Source: a virus | Lineage: Duplodnaviria > Heunggongvirae > Uroviricota > Caudoviricetes | Virus record (IMG/VR): IMGVR_UViG_2698536435_000009 | Length of the DNA stretch: 7,446 nucleotides | Reading direction: 5' to 3' (one strand) | Shown here: piece by piece, positions 1 to 7,446 of the stretch | Layout of the letters: each line of letters begins with the position of its first letter | Position numbering within the stretch: position 1 is the stretch's first letter | Made by a program: the position numbers and the translations under genes | Notes under the pieces: generated by a model | The model's input: only the letters and a program-made list of their open reading frames with translations | Told to the model about the DNA's origin: nothing | The model's database searches: none

Positions 1-354
1 ATCGGGCATTATCTGAACATAAAACACTATCAATAAGTTGGAGTCATTACCCGATATCCTGCTGAGAACATAAACACCCACGGATCGAGGCGTACGCTAT
101 CATGTTGCTGTGCACCGCCCAGTTTATAATTGGCGATGGTATCGATATCCATGTACCACACTGACATGTTTTAAAAAATGCAATAAGACATTGTATCTGA
201 AAGAAAAAACAGGATTTTAAGGCGCTTTTTTATACCGTTTTCCGTGTTTTTAACTGCCTGATTTTATTGAAATCTTTTTTAGTTTTGCAGAAAGGATTTT
301 TTGCTCGATCGCTTTAATTTTATACATTCCTGATAACGGAAATTTTTTTGCCCG

Positions 355-384
355 TTGACAGTTTTTGTTCTCCGGGGCTATATT
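355..384 (+). promoter_or_regulatory. Candidate sigma70 promoter (TTGACA, 18-nt spacer, TATATT) reading rightward toward the Rha-family gene
   Basis: Consensus -35 TTGACA at 355-360 and near-consensus -10 TATATT at 379-384, preceded by a very AT-rich, T-tract-rich region (about 170-354) that could act as an UP element or curved DNA. Sequence pattern only. Confidence 0.4.
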
Positions 385-444
385 CCTCACACAACCGCAA
401 AATCGGTTGTCGGGATTGGCGTCTCGGATAACATCACAACGCAT

Positions 445-466
445 AGCCGCGTTTGCGGTTTTTTTT
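445..466 (+). terminator. Terminator-like hairpin with U8 tract in the leader, about 55-75 nt downstream of the candidate promoter (possible attenuator or end of a short leader RNA)
   Basis: Short GC stem CCGC/GCGG (447-450 with 455-458, extendable by A-U and G-U pairs) with GTTT loop, followed directly by eight T residues (459-466). The stem is short, so this is weak. Confidence 0.3.
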
Positions 467-565
467 GCGTTAAGCATTGCCACATTCGCATTATGGTGGG
501 GCGTGCAGGGGCGGAGAAATCCGCGCCGGGTTTTGTGATGACCGGTTACGCCAACCCTGTACGTC

Positions 566-599
566 TCACCACCTCCCTGATTGGCGTCAGAGGTGGTGA
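566..599 (+). promoter_or_regulatory. Perfect 9-bp stem hairpin (TCACCACCT, 16-nt loop, AGGTGGTGA) immediately upstream of the Rha-family gene ribosome-binding site
   Basis: Perfect inverted repeat read directly from the sequence. The 3' arm is Shine-Dalgarno-like, and the hairpin ends 14 nt before the GGAG at 614-617. Confidence 0.3.
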
Positions 600-626
600 T
601 CATCCAATTAATTGGAGTCATCACAT

Positions 627-1184
627 ATGAATACAGCTATAACTTTTTCTAACGAGTCACCAAAAGTCTTTTTCAAAGATGGTCGCCTGGTTACCACCTC
701 TCAAGCTGTTGCCGACTACTTCGATAAACAACATAAACACGTTTTAGCTAAGATTGACACACTCGACTGCTCTCCCGAATTTACATCAGCCAACTTTTCG
801 GCCGATGTTCAGACTGTCGAAATTGGCAACGGCGCAGAACGTGAATCACGATGCTACCTGATCACAAAAGACGGCTTCATGTTCCTCGTAATGGGATTTA
901 CTGGCAAAAAAGCAGCCAGACTAAAAGAAGCTTACATTGAAAAATTTAACGCAATGGAAGAAGAACTCCACAAACGTCCTCCTGCAGCACAAAACTCCCC
1001 CGCCCCAAATAATGGATGCGCATTACTGATCCACTTCGATAAACACGGTCAGGTCGAGTTCACAGAAAAAGTCCCCGCCGATGCGATGGTATGCACTCTG
1101 GAACGGTTTAAATTTTATCTGGAGCAACATGGGTGGATCGTTGCCCGTAAAGAACAATTGGTGGAAAGGTTGATGCGGTTTTAA
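627..1184 (+). CDS. Rha-family phage regulatory protein (antirepressor-like), 185 aa
   Basis: ORF track 612..1184. The likely true start is ATG 627 with GGAG 9 nt upstream (612 is a TTG). The N-terminal region VTTSQAVADYFDKQHKHVLAKIDTL fits the Phage_pRha signature pattern (S-x-x-V/I-A-x-x-F-x-K-x-H-x-x-V-L-R/K-x-I) from memory. Stop is TAA. Confidence 0.65.
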   Translation: MNTAITFSNESPKVFFKDGRLVTTSQAVADYFDKQHKHVLAKIDTLDCSPEFTSANFSADVQTVEIGNGAERESRCYLITKDGFMFLVMGFTGKKAARLKEAYIEKFNAMEEELHKRPPAAQNSPAPNNGCALLIHFDKHGQVEFTEKVPADAMVCTLERFKFYLEQHGWIVARKEQLVERLMRF

Positions 1185-1310
1185 TGAATGCAAAACCCCG
1201 GATGATCACCGAGGTTAATTTTATCGAGCGTGATTGCCGCTAATCGCCATCGCTCTGATTGAGCGTAAATCATTCAGGTTATTCAGTTCTTCCTTCTGCT
1301 CTCGCTGACG

Positions 1311-1481
1311 TCAATAAATCCCATCATTGCGATCAACCTCATCCTTAACCATTGATGCGAGCAGTTCTTCCAGTTTCTGCGCTGACAGCTTTACCTGGTG
1401 ATCTTCAGCATCTTCCCGGGCTATTGTGGTTCGCGCAGTGGCTGATTTTGCTGACATCACCACAGGGGGCAGACGGACCAT
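1311..1481 (-). CDS. Hypothetical small protein (56 aa, MVRLPPVVMSAKSATARTTIAREDAEDHQVKLSAQKLEELLASMVKDEVDRNDGIY)
   Basis: Part of ORF track 1311..1592, whose listed start is a TTG inside the palindrome module. The internal ATG at 1479-1481 has GGAGG 10 nt upstream. No recognisable family; it could be a gene fragment. Confidence 0.2.
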   Translation of the reverse strand: MVRLPPVVMSAKSATARTTIAREDAEDHQVKLSAQKLEELLASMVKDEVDRNDGIY

Positions 1482-1547
1482 TGAACCATGGCCTCCGGAA
1501 CAAATAAGGGCAAAAATAACAACCACTATCGAAAGCTCACAAACTAA

Positions 1548-1581
1548 CCGCAGCACGTTCCTGCATACGACGTGTCTGCGG
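1548..1581. repeat. Imperfect 11-bp inverted repeat (CCGCAGCACGT ... ACGTGTCTGCGG) at the 3' junction of repeat unit A
   Basis: Read directly from the sequence. It is paralogous to the perfect palindrome at 4656-4688 and sits in a conserved roughly 70-bp module that also supplies the stop codon of the tfa-like gene. Confidence 0.5.
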
Positions 1582-1595
1582 CATAATCCCAATGA

Positions 1596-1865
1596 TTACT
1601 CCCTGACAGGATTTGCAGGCCACTCAATATCAGGTGCAGTTGATGTATCAACACGATTCAACAATACCCGATATTTATTCCATGCCTCCAGCAACGATCT
1701 TTCTTCCTCCGTTGCGATTTCCAGATCTACAGCATCCTGCAGTGGCGCAATATACTCACTAAATTCCTGGATGTAGAACTGTGTGGTGACGGTCTTCCAG
1801 CCATTCGGCTCCTGCTGTATCGAAGCATACTAGGCTATTTCAATATCGCTATGCTGCGGCAGCAT
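1596..1865 (-). pseudogene. Tail fibre assembly (Tfa)-like short protein, copy A, inactivated by an amber codon at codon 12
   Basis: About 90% DNA identity to the intact copy at 3654..3923. Translation gives [11 protein letters not shown] then TAG (plus-strand CTAGG at 1830-1834, where copy B has CCAGG). The rest stays in frame and keeps the conserved Tfa C-terminal motif ([25 protein letters not shown]). Confidence 0.6.
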
Positions 1866-1921
1866 TTAACCCCTTGTAATTCATCGCCATAATTGATTTA
1901 ATTCACAAATAAAACTATAAC

Positions 1922-2373
1922 ATGGTGAAATCAATGAAAACAAACACAGATGATGGGGCTAAAATTTACACACCACTTACCCTAAAGCTTTATGACTGGT
2001 GGGTTTTGGGAGTATCAAATCGGCTTGCATGGGGATGTCCTACAAAGGAACACCTTCTTCCACACTTTCTGGAACATTTAGGTAACAACCATCTGGATAT
2101 TGGTGTTGGAACTGGGTTTTACCTTACTCACGTACCTGAGAGTAGTCTGATATCTTTAATGGATTTGAACGAAGCTAGCCTGAACGCGGCATCTACAAGG
2201 GCTGGGGAATCAAAAATTAAACATAAAATTAGCCATGATGTTTTTGAACCTTATCCCGCGGCGTTACATGGTCAATTTGATTCCATTTCCATGTTTTACC
2301 TTCTTCACTGCCTGCCTGGAAATATATCTACAAAAAGCTGTGTAATACGCAATGCGGCGCAGGCCTTAACTGA
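1922..2373 (+). pseudogene. Class I SAM-dependent methyltransferase, copy A, truncated after codon 150 by the IS110-family element
   Basis: DNA is identical to 3980..4431 of the intact copy and the homology stops abruptly at 2373. The ORF track frame (1922..2461) reads on into the IS, adding an unrelated 29-aa tail. Motif I LDIGVGTGFY is present. Confidence 0.7.
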
Positions 2374-3653
2374 ATCAGGGAACTGGTTATTCTCATTTTT
2401 TATTTGTGACATTGTGGTTGTTGTGCGACAGACATTGCTATTCGGCCCATATCCCAGATAAAACCCGCCAGCTCACGTGCAACAGCAACAATTGTAATAT
2501 TGACATTCTTTCCTTTGGCCTGAAGTTTTCGATACCTCTTACAAAGCCTGAGTTGAGCATCCCATGCTCTGTCAATGACGGGGCGGGGTAAATTTTCCTG
2601 CCTTTTTTGTATTGCCGGACTGATGCGTGCCGGATGACGGTAACTCCACGCTGCCTCGACCAATAGCTTTCTGGCATAGCTGTTTCCGGCTTTGGTAATG
2701 CTGCCCTGATGTCTGCTTCCACCCGATGAATATTCTGATGGCGTGATACCAAACCATGACATCAGTTGTCGTGGATGTTCAAAACGGGTCAGATCACCCA
2801 GTTCAGAAATTAATCCAACCGCAGTAATAAACTGAATCCCTCGCATGGCTTGCAGCGCCTCTACTACCGGATACAGCCTCCATTCGGTAACGGCCTCCTT
2901 CAGGGCGGATTCCAGCCGTTCACATTGTGCCTGCCGATCTTCTATTGTACGACGGTGTTCGTCAAAAGCTAATTGTCGCCAGGGACTTTCGAATGAGTAT
3001 TTGCTGAGCCAGCGTCGGTGTGCAGGGCCCCAATCTGCTCGCCCGACATAATGGACCCCATGAACCAGAAGAAACGATTTCAGACGTTGCCTTGCATGCC
3101 GTAAATCATCGCGGGCAGATGCCCATGCCCGGGCCAAATCCCGGAATGCCTCATCTTCAATGCCGGGTACGTAGACAGCAGAAAGATCTCCTGCACGCAG
3201 TGAACGCACAAGTCTGATGGCATCACGGCGATCGGTTTTAACCCGCTCCCCCGGTTTTTTCGGGATAAGTGAGGGGGCGCAGACCATGCAGTCAAAACCG
3301 GATTTCACCAGCCGACGATAAAGTCCATAACCACAGGGCCCCGCTTCATAAACGATACTGACCTGCGATGACTTTGACCTGAGACGTTTACAAAGATTCT
3401 GAATATCAGTAGGTGATGTGCCAATTTTACCCATCAGTTCAACAGGTTCTGAATTGATAGCATAAGCGACAGTAATCGATTCTTTGTGAACATCTAACCC
3501 GACGTACAATGTGTTATTGTTGTTCATGCTGGCCTCCGTGGTGGAAATACCGGGGTGTAGCAACAGCTCACCCATGCGGCTCTGACAACGATGTTAACCC
3601 GCGTTAAATATCCCACGTTGGCCAGCATCTGTCTCACGGAAAGTCATACTGCC
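2374..3653 (-). mobile_element. IS110-family insertion sequence (about 1.28 kb, boundaries approximate) with no obvious terminal inverted repeats
   Basis: Bounded on the left by the break in methyltransferase homology at 2373/2374 and on the right by the tfa-like copy B (stop at 3654, homology to copy A resuming at 3676). It contains a single DEDD-type transposase ORF. The right boundary is uncertain within 3528-3675. Confidence 0.65.
2400..3527 (-). CDS. IS110-family (DEDD) transposase, about 375 aa
   Basis: ORF track 2400..3575. The preferred start is ATG 3525-3527 (MNNNNTLYVGLDVHK) with GGAGG 7 nt upstream. It has the N-terminal YVGLDVHK motif typical of IS110-family transposases and the C-terminal ITAVGLISELGDLTRFEHPRQLMSWFGITPSEYSSGGSRHQGSITKAGNSYARKLL region. 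Confidence 0.85.
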   Translation of the reverse strand: MNNNNTLYVGLDVHKESITVAYAINSEPVELMGKIGTSPTDIQNLCKRLRSKSSQVSIVYEAGPCGYGLYRRLVKSGFDCMVCAPSLIPKKPGERVKTDRRDAIRLVRSLRAGDLSAVYVPGIEDEAFRDLARAWASARDDLRHARQRLKSFLLVHGVHYVGRADWGPAHRRWLSKYSFESPWRQLAFDEHRRTIEDRQAQCERLESALKEAVTEWRLYPVVEALQAMRGIQFITAVGLISELGDLTRFEHPRQLMSWFGITPSEYSSGGSRHQGSITKAGNSYARKLLVEAAWSYRHPARISPAIQKRQENLPRPVIDRAWDAQLRLCKRYRKLQAKGKNVNITIVAVARELAGFIWDMGRIAMSVAQQPQCHK

Positions 3654-3923
3654 TTACATTGTGTCTGGTTCTTCCGGCCACTCAATATCAGGTGCAGTTG
3701 ATGTATCAACACGGTTCAGCAACACCCGATACTTCTTCCAGGCTTCCAGCAACGAGTTTTCTTCCTCCGTTGCGATCTCCAGATCTACAGCATCCTGAAG
3801 TGGCGCAATATGCTCACTGAATTCCTGGATGTAGAACTGTGTGGTGACGGTCTTCCAGCCATTCGGCTCCTGCTGTATCGAAGCATACCAGGCTATTTCA
3901 ATATCGCTATGCTGCGGCAGCAT
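3654..3923 (-). CDS. Short tail fibre assembly (Tfa)-like protein, 89 aa, intact copy B
   Basis: ORF track 3654..3923. The C-terminal 50 aa ([50 protein letters not shown]) align with the C-terminus of the full-length Tfa at 6583..7110 ([45 protein letters not shown]). The N-terminal 40 aa are unrelated. Confidence 0.55.
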
Positions 3924-3950
3924 TTAACCCCTTGTAATTCATCGCCATAA

Positions 3951-3979
3951 TTGATTTAATTCACAAATAAAACTATAAC
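3951..3979 (+). promoter_or_regulatory. Possible promoter for the methyltransferase gene (TTGATT, 17-nt spacer, TATAAC)
   Basis: Hexamers at 3951-3956 and 3974-3979 in the 56-bp divergent intergenic region. The -10 element abuts ATG 3980, so the real start may be the second ATG at 3992 on a very short leader. Weak, pattern only. Confidence 0.2.
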
Positions 3980-4648
3980 ATGGTGAAATCAATGAAAACA
4001 AACACAGATGATGGGGCTAAAATTTACACACCACTTACCCTAAAGCTTTATGACTGGTGGGTTTTGGGAGTATCAAATCGGCTTGCATGGGGATGTCCTA
4101 CAAAGGAACACCTTCTTCCACACTTTCTGGAACATTTAGGTAACAACCATCTGGATATTGGTGTTGGAACTGGGTTTTACCTTACTCACGTACCTGAGAG
4201 TAGTCTGATATCTTTAATGGATTTGAACGAAGCTAGCCTGAACGCGGCATCTACAAGGGCTGGGGAATCAAAAATTAAACATAAAATTAGCCATGATGTT
4301 TTTGAACCTTATCCCGCGGCGTTACATGGTCAATTTGATTCCATTTCCATGTTTTACCTTCTTCACTGCCTGCCTGGAAATATATCTACAAAAAGCTGTG
4401 TAATACGCAATGCGGCGCAGGCCTTAACTGACGATGGAACTCTATACGGAGCCACAATTCTTGGCGATGGAGTTGTGCACAATAGCTTCGGTCAAAAACT
4501 GATGCGCATTTACAATCAGAAAGGCATCTTTTCAAACACAAAAGATTCCGAAGAAGGCTTAACACATATACTCTCAGAGCATTTCGAGAATGTTAAAACC
4601 AGGGTTCAAGGTACTGTAGTAATGTTTTCCGCTTCAGGGAAAAAATAG
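3980..4648 (+). CDS. Class I SAM-dependent methyltransferase (Rossmann fold), 222 aa, intact copy B
   Basis: ORF track 3980..4648. Motif I LDIGVGTGFYL (hh-D-h-G-x-G-x-G), with an acidic residue after beta-2 (LMDLNEA). No DNA-methyltransferase catalytic motifs (DPPY/NPPY or PC) were seen. An alternative start is ATG 3992. Stop is TAG. Confidence 0.8.
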   Translation: MVKSMKTNTDDGAKIYTPLTLKLYDWWVLGVSNRLAWGCPTKEHLLPHFLEHLGNNHLDIGVGTGFYLTHVPESSLISLMDLNEASLNAASTRAGESKIKHKISHDVFEPYPAALHGQFDSISMFYLLHCLPGNISTKSCVIRNAAQALTDDGTLYGATILGDGVVHNSFGQKLMRIYNQKGIFSNTKDSEEGLTHILSEHFENVKTRVQGTVVMFSASGKK

Positions 4649-4655
4649 CATCCAA

Positions 4656-4688
4656 CCGCAGCACGTTCTTGCTTAAGACGTGCTGCGG
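4656..4688. repeat. Perfect 11-bp inverted repeat (CCGCAGCACGT, 11-nt loop, ACGTGCTGCGG) between the convergent methyltransferase and tfa fragment C
   Basis: Read directly from the sequence. It is GC-rich but has no adjacent U-tract on either strand, so it is not a canonical intrinsic terminator. Confidence 0.5.
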
Positions 4689-4702
4689 CATAATCCCAAT
4701 GA

Positions 4703-4797
4703 TTACTCCCTGACAGGGTTCGTAGGCCACTCAATATCAGGTGCAGTTGATGTATCAACACGGTTCAGCAACACCCGATACTTTTTCTAGGCTTCCA
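4703..4797 (-). pseudogene. Tfa-like C-terminal fragment, copy C, with an amber codon at the conserved Trp position
   Basis: Homologous to 3654-3745 of copy B. It reads EA then TAG then [27 protein letters not shown]. The TAG is plus-strand CTAGG at 4787-4791 where copy B has CCAGG. Homology to tfa ends at 4797. Confidence 0.55.
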
Positions 4798-4798
4798 C

Positions 4799-5029
4799 CA
4801 CCAGCACGACAAGATGCCGCATACAGTGACCCAGTCAGTCCAGTTTTCAGACAACCAGTGCGTCACCTTTTTGAAGGCGCTTTAAAGCACGTTTTAATCC
4901 AGGTCGGCCTGTCCTTGTTCCGCTTAATTTATCTTCAAATATTTGTTCATATCCTGCACAAACAAGAGCGTTTCGTTGCAGGTCTGTATTCTGGTCATTT
5001 GTTGATACCCTTACATAGCCAATCAGCAC
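4799..5029 (-). pseudogene. pin: Pin/Gin/Cin-family serine DNA invertase, N-terminal remnant (about 77 codons) with in-frame stops, fused to tfa fragment C
   Basis: From GTG 5027-5029 (GGAG 8 nt upstream) it reads MLIGYVRVSTNDQNTDLQRNALVCAGYEQIFEDKLSGTRTGRPGLKRALKRLQKGDALVV, matching the Gin/Pin N-terminus including the catalytic Ser in VRVSTNDQ. It then reads TGA-KLD-TGA-LGHCMRHLVVLVVEA against Gin WKLDRLGRSMKHLISLVGEL (Gin sequence from memory). The resolvase C-terminus and the helix-turn-helix are absent. Confidence 0.8.
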
Positions 5030-5083
5030 GCTGAATCTCCCGTCCAAAAGCACAAATCATGCCATGCAGGCCAGAAACCGCCA

Positions 5084-5109
5084 TTATCTAAAACCTCGGT
5101 TTACGAGAA
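5084..5109. other. gix/pix-type 26-bp recombination crossover site for a Gin/Pin-family invertase
   Basis: TTATCTAAAACCTCGGTTTACGAGAA, with the imperfect dyad AAACC-TC-GGTTT, closely resembles the Mu gix and e14 pix sites as I remember them. It lies between the invertase start and the tail-fibre variable segment, and the tail-fibre reading frame opens inside it at 5092. Confidence 0.7.
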
Positions 5110-5868
5110 CTCGGCACAAGCGGGGAGAAAATACCGTTACTCAGTACAGCGAATACCTGGACTAATCGACAAACATTCAGCGGTGGCCTTTCTGGTGAAC
5201 TATCCGGCAATGCTTCTACAGCTGCAAAATTAAAAACTGCCAGGAAAATAAGCAATGTGGCTTTTGATGGTTCCTCCGATATCACATTAAAAGCAAGTCA
5301 TGTTGGTGCGTTTGCCTTAGGGAAAACAGGAAGCACCGTTGCGAATGATAAAGCAGTTGGATGGAACTGGAGTAGCGGAGCCTATAACGCAACTATTAGT
5401 GGTGCATCAACGTTAATTATTCATTTTTATATGGGAGAAGGAAGTTGTCCTGCAGCTCAGTTTCGGATTAATTATAAAAATGGCGGTATTTTTTATCGTT
5501 CAGCCCGTGATGGTTATGGTTTTGAAGCCGACTGGTCCGAATTTTACACCACCAGAAAACCTTCAGCAGGAGATGTTGGTGCACTGCCGTTATCTGGTGG
5601 TCAACTGAATGGTGCACTGGGTATCGGAACATCCAGTGCTCTTGGCGGTAATTCGATTGTATTGGGTGATAATGACACGGGCTTTAAACAAAAAGGCGAT
5701 GGTAATCTGGATGTTTATGCTAATAACGTCCATGTTATGCGCTTTGTCTCCGGAAGCATTCAAAGTAATAAAACCATAAATATTACGGGACGTGTTAATC
5801 CCTCGGATTACGGTAACTTTGATTCCCGCTATGTGAGAGATGTCAGACTTGGCACACGAGTTGTTTAG
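5092..5868 (+). CDS. Tail fibre protein variable C-terminal segment (Sv, silent orientation), with no own start, ending at an in-frame TAG; the frame continues 5872..6018
   Basis: The open frame begins within the crossover site (NLGLRELGTSGEKIPLLSTANTW...) and covers ORF track 5257..5868 (GTG-initiated). It is Gly/Ser-rich and fibre-like. After TAG 5866-5868 the same frame encodes 48 more aa ending [17 protein letters not shown], homologous to the C-terminus of the minus-strand copy ([17 protein letters not shown]). Confidence 0.6.
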   Translation, partial: NLGLRELGTSGEKIPLLSTANTWTNRQTFSGGLSGELSGNASTAAKLKTARKISNVAFDGSSDITLKASHVGAFALGKTGSTVANDKAVGWNWSSGAYNATISGASTLIIHFYMGEGSCPAAQFRINYKNGGIFYRSARDGYGFEADWSEFYTTRKPSAGDVGALPLSGGQLNGALGIGTSSALGGNSIVLGDNDTGFKQKGDGNLDVYANNVHVMRFVSGSIQSNKTINITGRVNPSDYGNFDSRYVRDVRLGTRVV

Positions 5869-6020
5869 ACCATGAAGAAAGGCGTGATGTATGAAAAATC
5901 AGGCCATGTAATCACGGGGCTTGGTATTATCGGTGAAGTCGATGGTGATGATCCGGCAGTATTCAGACCAATACAAAAGTTAATTAACGGAACATGGTAT
6001 AACGTATCGCAGGTATAATC

Positions 6021-6554
6021 ATGCAGCATTTAAAAAACATTGTCGCAGGTAATCCAAAAACCGTTGAACAATACCAGCTAACAAAGAATTTTGATGTTAT
6101 CTGGTTATGGTCCGAAGATGGAAAAAATTGGCATGAGGAATTAAAAAACTTTCAGGAGGATACAATAAAACTGGCTTACACAGTTGAGGGAATAATTATT
6201 GCTATAGACAAGGATGTATCAGCAATTAATCCAGAAGGTTTAAGTGTCGTTGAGTTGCCTGATATTACAGCAAATCGCCGGGCTGATATTTCGGGCAACT
6301 GGATGTTCAAAGATGGTGCGGTGATAAAGCGAACTTATACCGAGGAAGAGCAAAGGCAACAAGCGGAAAATGAAAAGCAGAGCCTGCTGCAGCTCGTCAG
6401 GGATAAAACCCAGCTGTGGGACTCTCAGCTACAGCTGGGCATCATTTCCGATGAGAATAAACAAAAATTAACCGAGTGGATGCTCTATGCGCAGAAGGTT
6501 GAATCCACAGACACCTCCAGCCTGCCAGTAACGTTTCCCGAACAACCAGAATGA
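6021..6554 (+). CDS. Tail fibre assembly protein (Tfa), 177 aa
   Basis: ORF track 6021..6554. ATG follows 2 nt after the TAA of the upstream tail-fibre frame. It is paralogous to the minus-strand Tfa ([22 protein letters not shown] versus [21 protein letters not shown]) and ends with the conserved PEQPE-type terminus. Confidence 0.85.
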
Positions 6555-6557
6555 GAG

Positions 6558-6587
6558 AAGGCCCGCTATCGGGCCTTAATTTTTATT
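6558..6587. terminator. Bidirectional intrinsic terminator between the convergent tfa genes
   Basis: Perfect 8-bp stem AAGGCCCG, CTAT loop, CGGGCCTT (6558-6577), followed by AATTTTTATT on the plus strand, with a T-rich stretch on the other side for the minus strand. Confidence 0.55.
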
Positions 6588-7110
6588 CAGGCTTTTGTGG
6601 CCATTCAGGATTTGCCGTATCCACACGGCTGACCAGAACACTGTAGCGTTCCCATGCTTCCAGTCGTGTGCGTTCCTCGTCTGTTGCCATATTCAGCCTG
6701 ACAGCTCGTTCCAGCGGCTGGATGACTGATTCAGCTTCGGAAAGCAATGCGGCCTTTTGTGATTCGGCCTGTTGTTGCAGTTCCTGTTCTGTATATTCCC
6801 TCTTTACTACTTTACCATCCAGAAACATCCATTTTCCGTTATTGTCTGCGTGACGATTTGCCGTAATATCAGGAACTTCAACTATGCTTAGCCCTTCAGG
6901 ATTAATAGTTGAAACGTCTTTACTGACAGCAACGATGATGTTGTTCTCATCGTAAGCAATTTTTATGGTGTCTGGCTGAAAATTCTTTTGTTCCTCATAC
7001 CAGTTTTTGCCATCTTCGCAAAAGAGCCATACCACGCCCGCTTTTTTAGTTAGCTGGTATTGTTCCGGTGTTTTCGGATTCCCGGCCTTAATATTTTTCA
7101 GGTGCATCAT
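6583..7110 (-). CDS. Tail fibre assembly protein (Tfa), inverted paralogue, about 175 aa
   Basis: ORF track 6583..7146. The preferred start is ATG 7108-7110 ([11 protein letters not shown]) with GGGGAG 8 nt upstream, sitting 1 nt after the TAA of the tail-fibre gene. The C-terminus is [13 protein letters not shown]. Confidence 0.85.
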
Positions 7111-7111
7111 C

Positions 7112-7446
7112 TTAAACACTCCCCACGTTGTACCATATTCCCCCAATCAATTTCTGAATTGGCCTTCTGGCAACAGTGTCGACAATATCATCCGCATTGC
7201 TGTTAATTGCGGCTGTTAAAACATAACCTGACGCATCGCCAAAGCCGTAGTCGCGCCATACGTTTTTATATTCAATGCTGCCAAGACGAATATCCCGAAC
7301 GACATGATTATGCAGCCATGTGCTTAACCAGTTGTTTTCCCACACTGAACCATAAATATCGCCACTAGACGCAACTTGCGCACCACTTCCCAGCGCAAAT
7401 TGAGGTAGCCTGAGTTTAACGGACACTCCTTCCTGAAATAGAATGG
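7112..7446 (-). CDS. Tail fibre protein variable C-terminal segment (expressed orientation), partial, continuing beyond the right edge of the window
   Basis: ORF track 7112..7426 is only GTG-delimited, and the frame stays open to position 7446. The C-terminus ...[63 protein letters not shown] is homologous to the plus-strand silent copy but is not interrupted. Confidence 0.75.

What the first reader, a model, noticed from the sequence alone, without database searches (positions are those of the whole stretch)
2374..3653. IS110-family element without inverted repeats that replaced about 270 bp between two repeat units; its 5' flank may encode a bridge RNA
The element carries one DEDD-type transposase gene. 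I could find neither terminal inverted repeats nor a target-site duplication, which is typical for the IS110 family. It sits where the 3' end of the first methyltransferase copy and the palindrome module would be expected, so it either inserted with an adjacent deletion or targeted the palindromic module. IS110-family recombinases are known to use a structured non-coding bridge RNA encoded in a non-coding end of the element. Here only about 26 bp lie beyond the transposase stop (2374-2399), while about 125-150 bp lie upstream of its start (3528-3653/3675), making that flank the candidate. The exact right-hand boundary cannot be set from this window alone.
Basis: partly seen in the sequence, partly recalled or inferred. 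Interest (0 to 1): 0.6.

Follow-up and report, generated by a model that had tools for sequence, protein, structure and literature searches.

The report
Truncated ISSso6 missing its bridge RNA
This is a broken copy of the known insertion sequence ISSso6: the recombinase gene and left end are intact, but the right end, which encodes its guide (bridge) RNA, has been deleted, so the copy is ordinary and probably immobile.

Summary
The element is real and is ISSso6, a known IS110-family element of the IS1111 group. It differs by 1 nt in 1283 from annotated E. coli copies, and its recombinase is identical to WP_001063816.1. But this copy is truncated. Complete copies run 240 bp further past the recombinase stop codon. 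They carry 14-bp subterminal inverted repeats and a 265-nt right-end non-coding region.

That right-end region, not the 5' flank, encodes the bridge/seek RNA. It is a ~190-nt structure closed by a 21-bp stem. It holds two hypervariable loop segments. In 23 relatives these match the DNA flanking each element: 101/138 and 76/115 positions, against 43 and 37 in permutations. A covariance model of this RNA scores 182-201 bits in complete copies and 62-102 bits in distant relatives. In the window its best score is 12 bits, and the 5' flank scores 1 bit. Durrant et al. 2024 already list ISSso6 as "RE, IS1111".

The window keeps 10 nt of this RNA. The 5' flank is a conserved leader that pairs the ribosome-binding site. 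The "270 bp replaced" model is not supported: E. coli alleles carry one methyltransferase unit. The window instead has a 756-bp duplication around the remnant.

The parts
2375..3654 (-). ISSso6 remnant: left end, leader, complete recombinase gene and the first 25 nt of the 3' non-coding region, plus the core dinucleotide. This is about 1278 of about 1518 bp; the last 240 bp are missing.
   Evidence: 99.5-99.9% identity to annotated ISSso6 copies. 1 nt difference in 1283 from L002. Complete copies extend 240 bp further.
2400..3527 (-). Recombinase (transposase) gene, 375 aa, intact.
   Evidence: Pfam PF01548 and PF02371. Protein identical to WP_001063816.1 in L001/L002. D12, E61, D99, D102 and S268-G269 are invariant in alignment A1.
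3528..3652 (-). Left-end non-coding leader (125 nt). It is a conserved structured 5' UTR, not the bridge RNA. The stem 3620-3626/3528-3534 and a second stem pair the Shine-Dalgarno GGAGG (3533-3537).
   Evidence: Alignment A2 and its consensus fold. 96.4% of cells paired against at most 42.5% when slid; 5 pairs with compensatory changes. No cognate match to target or donor. Model R2 scores 119 bits.
3635..3648 (-). Left subterminal inverted repeat, TATGACTTTCCGTG. Its partner in the right end is deleted.
   Evidence: Both repeats are seen in complete copies, 4 nt from each end. No right-end sequence exists anywhere in the window.
3653..3654 (.). Core dinucleotide CT (AG on the recombinase strand). 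It is shared by the target and the element.
   Evidence: Empty sites L010/L011 compared with occupied sites L001/L003...GCG-CT-TAC.... The uninterrupted tfa site in L008/L009 reads ...TTTTTCG-CT-TACATTGTG.
3655..3675 (-). Left half of the insertion target: the natural 3' end of a tail-fibre-assembly gene (allele ending ...EEPDTM*), which differs from the other two tfa ends in the window.
   Evidence: Window 3658-3730 is 100% identical to uninterrupted tfa genes; 1021 E. coli genomes have a match covering at least 80% of it. Junction read.
2375..2384 (-). All that remains of the bridge/seek RNA gene: the first 10 nt (AGTTCCCTGA) of its 21-bp closing stem.
   Evidence: Alignment A4 columns 1-10. 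No other match to the RNA in the window.
2373..2375 (.). Truncation junction: methyltransferase sequence ends at 2373, one unassigned A lies at 2374, and internal IS sequence starts at 2375. No shared core dinucleotide and no IS end, so this is an illegitimate junction.
   Evidence: Direct comparison with methyltransferase copy 2 and with complete ISSso6.
1618..2373 (+). Copy 1 of the 756-bp duplicated host segment (tfa' fragment plus the 5' two-thirds of the methyltransferase gene; the gene is truncated at 2373).
   Evidence: BLAST of the window against itself and against L006. Mismatch map.
3676..4431 (+). Copy 2 of the duplicated segment. It continues into the complete methyltransferase gene (3980-4648). 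Its first ~140 nt (3676-3812) come from a different tfa allele.

Best explanation
Window 2375-3654 is a 3'-truncated, probably immobile copy of the known insertion sequence ISSso6 (IS110 family, IS1111 group).

A complete ISSso6 is about 1518 bp plus a 2-nt core. It has 14-bp subterminal inverted repeats 4 nt from each end, a 125-nt left-end leader, a 375-aa DEDD recombinase gene and a 265-nt right-end non-coding region.

The right-end region encodes a ~190-nt bridge (seek) RNA. A 21-bp stem closes two modules:
- An internal loop whose 5' side (UUAGCGCUU) is complementary to the target top strand A-AG-CGCUAA, and whose 3' side (ACGUAAG) equals the target top strand left of and including the core.
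- A second module with AUAUCAG and UACUGC, which match the joined right and left ends of the element.

The RNA guides insertion at GTA|AG|CG-like sites, and the only duplicated bases are the 2-nt core (shown). In the excised circle the right end would supply TTGACA and the left end cAGTAT, 17 nt apart, forming a promoter (inferred).

In this locus the element inserted at such a site, spanning the stop codon of a tail-fibre-assembly gene next to a terminator hairpin (shown for the left flank). A later illegitimate deletion or rearrangement removed the last 240 bp of the element, including the right end and all but 10 nt of the RNA gene. It also removed the right half of the target, and it fused the remnant to an internal point of a methyltransferase gene.

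This copy therefore cannot make its own guide RNA and has no right end with which to be excised (inferred from the published mechanism). Its intact recombinase could act only together with RNA from intact copies elsewhere in the genome. The retained 5' flank is a conserved leader that pairs the ribosome-binding site and most likely limits recombinase translation (inferred).
For: Identity: megablast to annotated ISSso6 at 99.5-99.9%. Recombinase identical to WP_001063816.1. N-terminal stretch shown for the ISfinder ISSso6 protein is identical. Pfam domains present.

Truncation: five copies with different outer flanks share a further 240 bp beyond window 2375. No right end or RNA core is present in the window.

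Ends and core: two empty/occupied site pairs and the uninterrupted tfa site.

RNA in the right end:
- The fold has z = -4.68 against shuffles.
- The consensus structure has 48 pairs, 98.2% paired against at most 43.2% when slid, and 10 pairs with compensatory changes.
- Across 23 distinct guide pairs, the loop segments match the right flank at 101/138 positions and the left flank at 76/115. Permuted pairings give 43.1±5.6 and 37.0±5.0, and 0 of 20,000 permutations reach the observed values.
- Cognate matches exist for the 3' region (0/5000 permutations) but not for the 5' region (2173/5000).
- Covariance model R1 scores 182-201 bits in the complete E. coli copies and 62-102 bits in held-out relatives at ~50% protein identity, always downstream of the gene. 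In the window the best score is 12.4 bits, and the 5' flank scores 1.0 bit.

Literature: Durrant et al. 2024, Supplementary Table 5, lists 'ISSso6 RE IS1111'. IS1111 elements carry the bridge RNA in the right end. In IS1111 seekRNAs the top-strand match lies 5' of the bottom-strand match, as it does here.
Against: No RNA or transposition data exist for ISSso6 itself, so the RNA, its ends and the junction promoter are computational inferences. The right half of the target at this locus is deleted, so guided insertion here is inferred from uninterrupted alleles in other genomes. The order of events and the amount of host DNA lost cannot be reconstructed, because the source genome and an ancestral allele were not found. 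The recombinase is only distantly related to the core IS1111 cluster: full-length similarity only to IS1533 (33%) and C-terminal local hits to ISPa11, IS4321 and ISEc11. The function assigned to the 5' leader rests on structure alone.
Confidence: 0.9

Rival explanations
1. One reading: a complete IS110-group element without inverted repeats, whose bridge RNA is encoded in the ~125-150-nt 5' flank (3528-3675).
For: The 5' flank is non-coding, conserved and structured. IS110-group elements such as IS621 and ISEc21 do encode the RNA upstream of the gene.
Against: The element is truncated. The 5' flank shares no 6-mer with donor or target on either strand. It shows no cognate-specific matching across 23 relatives (p about 0.43). 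Model R1 scores it at 1.0 bit. The leader model fails in most ~50%-identity relatives, whereas the 3' RNA model succeeds in all of them. Durrant et al. place the ISSso6 RNA in the right end.
Confidence: 0.02
2. The left junction (2373/2375) was made by the recombinase itself, through an RNA-guided off-target or half-match recombination, rather than by an illegitimate deletion.
For: IS110-family recombinases can catalyse programmable deletions and inversions. A 2026 preprint title reports half-match off-target events.
Against: The junction retains neither element end. The two parental sequences share no core dinucleotide at the breakpoint: on the recombinase strand the IS reads CCCTGA-AG-GCG and the methyltransferase reads CCATCG-TC-AGTT. 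One extra nucleotide (2374) belongs to neither parent.
Confidence: 0.05
3. A pre-existing tandem array of tfa'-methyltransferase units was hit by ISSso6 in the middle palindrome module. One deletion then removed about 270 bp of host DNA plus the IS right end.
For: The repeat geometry fits: unit 1 stops 217 bp before the methyltransferase stop, and the palindrome module is missing between the units. The two palindrome alleles have the same length (71 nt), so a hybrid unit is conceivable.
Against: The E. coli alleles examined have a single unit. No E. coli complete genome has the methyltransferase followed by the GCTTAC-type tfa end that ISSso6 targeted; the best match is 91% and is the other allele. 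Positions 3658-3812 derive from a different tfa allele. This points to recombination with another prophage rather than a simple array.
Confidence: 0.3

Closest known systems
ISSso6 (ISfinder; IS110 family, IS1111 group; annotated by PGAP as 'IS110-like element ISSso6 family transposase')
   Same: Sequence identity of 99.5-99.9% over all 1283 bp present. Identical recombinase, same left end, same core.
   Different: The window copy lacks the last 240 bp: the right subterminal repeat, the right end and about 180 of about 190 nt of the guide RNA gene.
IS1111-group elements with experimentally shown seekRNA/bridge RNA (ISEc11, ISPa11, ISKpn4; Siddiquee et al. 2024, PMC11187229)
   Same: Complete ISSso6 shares the subterminal inverted repeats, the long non-coding region downstream of the gene, and an RNA in which the segment complementary to the target top strand lies 5' of the segment complementary to the bottom strand. 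It also makes no target duplication.
   Different: The recombinase is longer (375 against 330-350 aa) and only distantly related (C-terminal local similarity). The target is a short GTA|AG|CG motif rather than a long repeat. Nothing has been tested experimentally for ISSso6.
IS621 / ISEc21 (IS110 group; bridge RNA in the left end)
   Same: DEDD recombinase with a Transposase_20 C-terminal domain, a 2-nt core (CT for IS621) and a two-module guide RNA that reads both target and donor.
   Different: In those elements the RNA lies upstream of the gene, subterminal repeats are absent or only 2-3 bp, and the order of the top- and bottom-strand guides is reversed.
IS1533 (Leptospira; listed 'RE, IS1111' by Durrant et al. 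2024)
   Same: Closest characterised recombinase among those compared: 33% identity over 343 aa, E = 6e-48. Same predicted right-end RNA location.
   Different: Different host phylum. The DNA ends and the RNA were not compared here.

Membership tests
IS110 family (DEDD recombinase insertion sequences) | Recombinase with an N-terminal DEDD/RuvC-like domain and a C-terminal Transposase_20 domain carrying the G--P----SG motif | tested here: met
   PF01548 (2.4e-11) and PF02371 (8.1e-24). D12, E61, D99, D102 and S268-G269 are invariant in A1. The sequence reads GITPSEYSSG.
IS110 family (DEDD recombinase insertion sequences) | Site-specific insertion with no target-site duplication beyond a shared core dinucleotide | tested here: met
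   Two empty/occupied site pairs show only CT shared. The uninterrupted tfa site agrees. In the window itself only the left junction can be checked.
IS1111 group | Subterminal inverted repeats of 7-17 bp | tested here: met
   Complete copies carry a 14-bp TATGACTTTCCGTG repeat 4 nt from each end. The window retains only the left one (3635-3648).
IS1111 group | Right-end non-coding region longer than the left-end one | tested here: met
   Complete ISSso6 has 265 nt (right) against 125 nt (left). Whole-IS contigs of relatives show the same layout. The window copy has 25 nt on the right because of truncation.
IS1111 group | Guide (bridge/seek) RNA encoded in the right end, downstream of the recombinase gene | tested here: met
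   Guide-flank covariation, consensus structure and covariance model hits. Listed as 'RE IS1111' in Durrant et al. Table S5. Not met by the window copy, where the region is deleted.
IS1111 group | Recombinase clusters with IS1111-type recombinases | tested here: inconclusive
   Full-length similarity only to IS1533 (33%). C-terminal local hits to ISPa11, IS4321 and ISEc11. About 17-25% identity to core IS1111 members in the published matrix. No phylogeny was built here.
   No shared 6-mers with donor or three targets. Cognate matches equal non-cognate matches across 23 relatives (5.65 against 5.61; 2173/5000 permutations).
   Model R1 scores 1.0 bit at 3526-3628. Rfam 15 gives no hit in 3528-3675 at E up to 1. 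Rfam also gave no hit to the genuine right-end RNA.
Autonomous (mobile) IS copy | Both ends, the recombinase gene and the guide RNA gene all present | tested here: not met
   The right end and the RNA gene are absent from the whole window. The left end and the gene are intact.

The most novel reading that the evidence does not exclude
The 125-nt left-end leader retained in the window (3528-3652) may be a so far undescribed cis-regulatory RNA of the ISSso6 clade. Its conserved stems pair the Shine-Dalgarno sequence, and two positions of the closing stem show G-C to A-U compensatory changes. It could gate recombinase translation, with repression perhaps relieved by recombinase or guide-RNA binding. 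If so, the intact but guide-less recombinase gene here might still be regulated and act in trans with RNA from other copies.
Probability: 0.3. Interest if true: 0.3.

Novelty: already known. Interest (0 to 1): 0.15.

Why it matters
It matters mainly for correct annotation. The layout of an IS110-family element decides where to look for its guide RNA: left end in the IS110 group, right end in the IS1111 group. A truncated copy can mimic the wrong layout. This copy is a dead-end remnant that inactivates one methyltransferase copy in a prophage tail-fibre region.

The comparative analysis gives independent computational support for the published prediction that ISSso6 and its many Burkholderiales relatives carry a right-end bridge RNA. 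It also provides a natural 'reprogramming series' of 23 guide-target pairs. It reveals no new kind of system.

Tried and rejected
- Rfam 15 scans of the window and of a complete copy found no bridge-RNA family. I therefore built my own models.
- I tried to identify the source genome through the unique methyltransferase-IS fusion ORF, but it is not on record.
- The left-junction pattern was not found in viral contigs. The right junction was found once, in IMG/VR contig L092, which breaks inside the IS and adds nothing about the left side.
- No E. coli complete genome carries this insertion.
- I searched for the ancestor implied by the tandem-array model (methyltransferase followed by the GCTTAC-type tfa end) and found none; the best match was 91% and was the other allele.
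- I considered a recombinase-mediated origin for the left junction and rejected it: there is no shared core and no retained end.
- I considered that the variable pentamer after GGCAGGCUCA in the 3' RNA might be a further guide. I saw no clear relation to the flanks by eye and did not pursue it.
- I considered ISEc21-type (IS110-group) membership because of the 375-aa recombinase length. BLAST shows essentially no similarity.

Full report
**What is at 2374-3653.** The only long ORF on the minus strand (2400-3527, 375 aa from MNNNN) carries the Pfam domains DEDD_Tnp_IS110 and Transposase_20. Megablast of window 2330-3720 against 5,426 complete E. coli genomes hits elements annotated 'IS110-like element ISSso6 family transposase' or 'IS110 family RNA-guided transposase'. 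Identity is 99.5-99.9%, and the match always runs from window 2375 to about 3657. The protein is identical to WP_001063816.1, and the DNA differs from a plasmid copy by 1 nt in 1283. The N-terminal stretch shown for the ISfinder ISSso6 protein in the supplement of Siddiquee et al. 2024 is identical to it.

**The copy is truncated.** I fetched five E. coli copies with flanks. Beyond window 2375, past the stop codon, all five continue with the same sequence for about 240 bp before their flanks diverge. On the other side they diverge right after ...CTGCCTTAC. A complete element has these parts on the recombinase strand:
- a 125-nt left-end leader,
- the 375-aa gene,
- a 265-nt right-end non-coding region,
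- 14-bp subterminal inverted repeats (TATGACTTTCCGTG) 4 nt from each end.

The window copy stops after AGTTCCCTGA, 25 nt past the stop codon. Neither the right end nor the core of the right-end RNA occurs anywhere in the window.

**Ends, core and target.**
- For two insertions I found empty sites in other genomes. Empty ...GCGCTTAC... becomes ...GCGCT-[IS]-CTTAC... when occupied.
- Only CT (AG on the recombinase strand) is present at both junctions. This is the core dinucleotide, and there is no other target duplication.
- On the recombinase strand the target reads GTA|AG|CG.
- The window's right flank (3658-3730) is 100% identical to uninterrupted tail-fibre-assembly (tfa) genes, and 1021 E. 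coli genomes have a match covering at least 80% of it. There the sequence reads ...CTGCGGTTTTTCTTTTTCG-CT-TACATTGTGTCTGG.
- So in the window the core is 3653-3654 and IS DNA ends at 3652.
- The insertion point spans the tfa stop codon, 13 nt from a terminator-like hairpin.

**Where the guide RNA is.**
- The right-end region of complete ISSso6 folds far better than shuffles: -88 kcal/mol, z = -4.68. The 5' leader gives z = -2.18.
- I collected 80 relatives from genome contigs, mostly Burkholderiales, at 50-81% protein identity. They share the same layout.
- Alignment of the right-end region (A4) gives a consensus of 48 pairs. A 21-bp stem closes the structure. Inside is an internal loop flanked by stems, followed by two small hairpins.
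- 98.2% of cells are paired, against at most 43.2% when partners are slid. Ten pairs show compensatory changes.

**Guide segments in the internal loop.** The two sides of the loop are hypervariable between relatives, while the rest is conserved.
- In ISSso6 the 5' side is UUAGCGCUU. Its reverse complement, AAGCGCTAA, is exactly the target A-AG-CGCTAA at the hokC-nhaA site.
- The 3' side is ACGUAAG, which equals the left flank plus core.
- Further on, AUAUCAG equals the right end plus core, and UACUGC is complementary to the left end GCAGTA.

Across 23 distinct guide pairs the 5' segment matches the cognate right flank at 101 of 138 variable positions, where permuted pairings give 43.1±5.6. The 3' segment matches the left flank at 76 of 115, where permuted pairings give 37.0±5.0. 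None of 20,000 permutations reaches either value. An unbiased longest-match test gives the same answer for the 3' region (0/5000 permutations) and no signal for the 5' leader (2173/5000).

**Covariance model of the RNA.** Model R1 scores 182-201 bits in the five complete E. coli copies. It scores 62-102 bits in relatives at ~50% identity that were not used to build it. Every hit lies downstream of the gene on its strand. In the window, with filters off, the best hit is 12.4 bits, a short palindrome unrelated to the IS. The 5' flank scores 1.0 bit.

**Agreement with the literature.** Durrant et al. 2024 state that IS1111-group elements have long right ends, subterminal inverted repeats and a right-end bridge RNA. 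Their Supplementary Table 5 lists 'ISSso6 RE IS1111'. Siddiquee et al. 2024 showed experimentally, for other IS1111 elements, that the downstream region gives a seekRNA in which the top-strand match is 5' of the bottom-strand match. ISSso6 has the same order. The recombinase is closest to IS1533 (33% over 343 aa) and shows only C-terminal local similarity to ISPa11, IS4321, ISEc11 and IS621. It therefore sits in a deep branch, which I did not resolve.

**What the 5' flank is.** The leader (3528-3652) is conserved among the closer relatives. Its consensus fold has a closing stem GCUGGCC/GGCCAGC (window 3620-3626 with 3528-3534) and a second stem. Together these pair the Shine-Dalgarno GGAGG (3533-3537) just before the AUG. 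Two closing-stem positions show G-C to A-U double changes, in 2 and in 4 sequences. 96.4% of cells are paired, against at most 42.5% when slid. A model of the leader scores 119 bits in the window, but among the ~50%-identity relatives it finds only two. The leader is thus less conserved than the right-end RNA. It shares no 6-mer with donor or targets. My reading, which is an inference, is a translational-control leader. Joining the ends in a circle would place TTGACA from the right end 17 nt from cAGTAT in the left end. This is the kind of junction promoter reported for ISEc11 and ISEc21. It too is an inference.

**The surrounding rearrangement.** E. coli alleles of this prophage, a lambdoid prophage in ompW next to the trp operon, carry a single tfa'-methyltransferase unit followed by a full tfa gene. 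The window compares with that allele as follows:
- window 52-2373 equals allele positions 6001-8322 of locus L006;
- then come the IS remnant and 21 bp of a different tfa end;
- window 3676-4800 equals allele positions 7567-8691 of L006.

The net result is a 756-bp direct duplication bracketing the remnant. Copy 2 differs from copy 1 only in 3658-3812, which comes from another tfa allele. The left junction (2373 | A | 2375) has no IS end and no shared core, so it is illegitimate. The ancestor required by the 'tandem array, then ~270 bp replaced' model would be a methyltransferase followed by the GCTTAC-type tfa end. It was not found in E. coli. At least two events are needed: a guided insertion at a tfa end, then a deletion or recombination that removed the right end. 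The order of events and the amount of host DNA lost cannot be settled from the data I could reach. An IMG/VR contig shares the right junction but ends inside the IS.

**Verdict.** This is a known element in a defective state. The bridge-RNA-in-the-5'-flank interpretation is refuted, and the structural model is only partly supported. Novelty: already known. Interest: low.

Noticed in passing
window 378-576 (+), with ORFs to 1184: Rfam hits to c4-a1b1 (378-430), isrK (391-465, 72 bits) and C4 antisense RNA (489-576, 76 bits). They are followed by an 'ash family' ORF and a Rha-family gene (612-1184). This is a P1/P7-type immI-like antisense module at the prophage end next to an ompW remnant.
   Followed up: no
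window 1639-1842, 3697-3900, 4746-4825 (all -): Rfam family IS009 (RF02111) matches the tfa' fragments at 110.8, 129.2 and 46.4 bits against a gathering score of 117. This 'sRNA' family here coincides with the 3' part of tail-fibre-assembly coding sequence.
   Followed up: no
window 4801-7446: At 4800/4801 the tfa homology stops. A DNA invertase (Resolvase N-terminal domain) truncated to 68 aa follows (4847-5053, -). After it comes an invertible-segment-like tail-fibre cassette: fibre C-terminus (5257-5868), tfa (6021-6554), an inverted tfa (6583-7146) and an inverted fibre end (7112-7426), with 159-nt inverted arms at 6021-6179 and 6952-7110.
   Followed up: no
L018, L022, L024, L027 (relatives of ISSso6): In this Paraburkholderia subfamily the dinucleotide at the left junction is AG but at the right junction is AA, and the RNA guide matches AA. 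The two copies of the 'core' therefore differ in integrated elements.
   Followed up: partly
L078 2552-2742 and 2930-3120; L004 320-500 (-): One Desulfosarcina element has two tandem copies of the right-end RNA (87 bits each). In E. coli C311 a weaker hit to the RNA model (43.5 bits) lies next to a degenerate transposase about 1 kb from the ISSso6 copy.
   Followed up: no
window 1546-1617, 4654-4724; L008 ~3947-4000: The 71-nt region downstream of tfa genes exists in two alleles of equal length. One ends in ...GATTAC and the other in ...GCTTAC. Only the second contains the ISSso6 target GTAAGCG, so a two-base difference decides whether a tfa end is a target.
   Followed up: partly
L002 and L004: Two ISSso6 copies share the same right flank (the end of an IS66-family element) but have unrelated left flanks. 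This suggests recombination between ISSso6 copies, or insertion followed by rearrangement.
   Followed up: no
alignment A4 columns ~111-115 (ISSso6 3' RNA, CUCA-UAUGA-CGG): A third variable pentamer in the right-end RNA, outside the two target-matching segments, varies between subfamilies. In ISSso6 it resembles the subterminal repeat (UAUGAC). Its role is unknown.
   Followed up: partly
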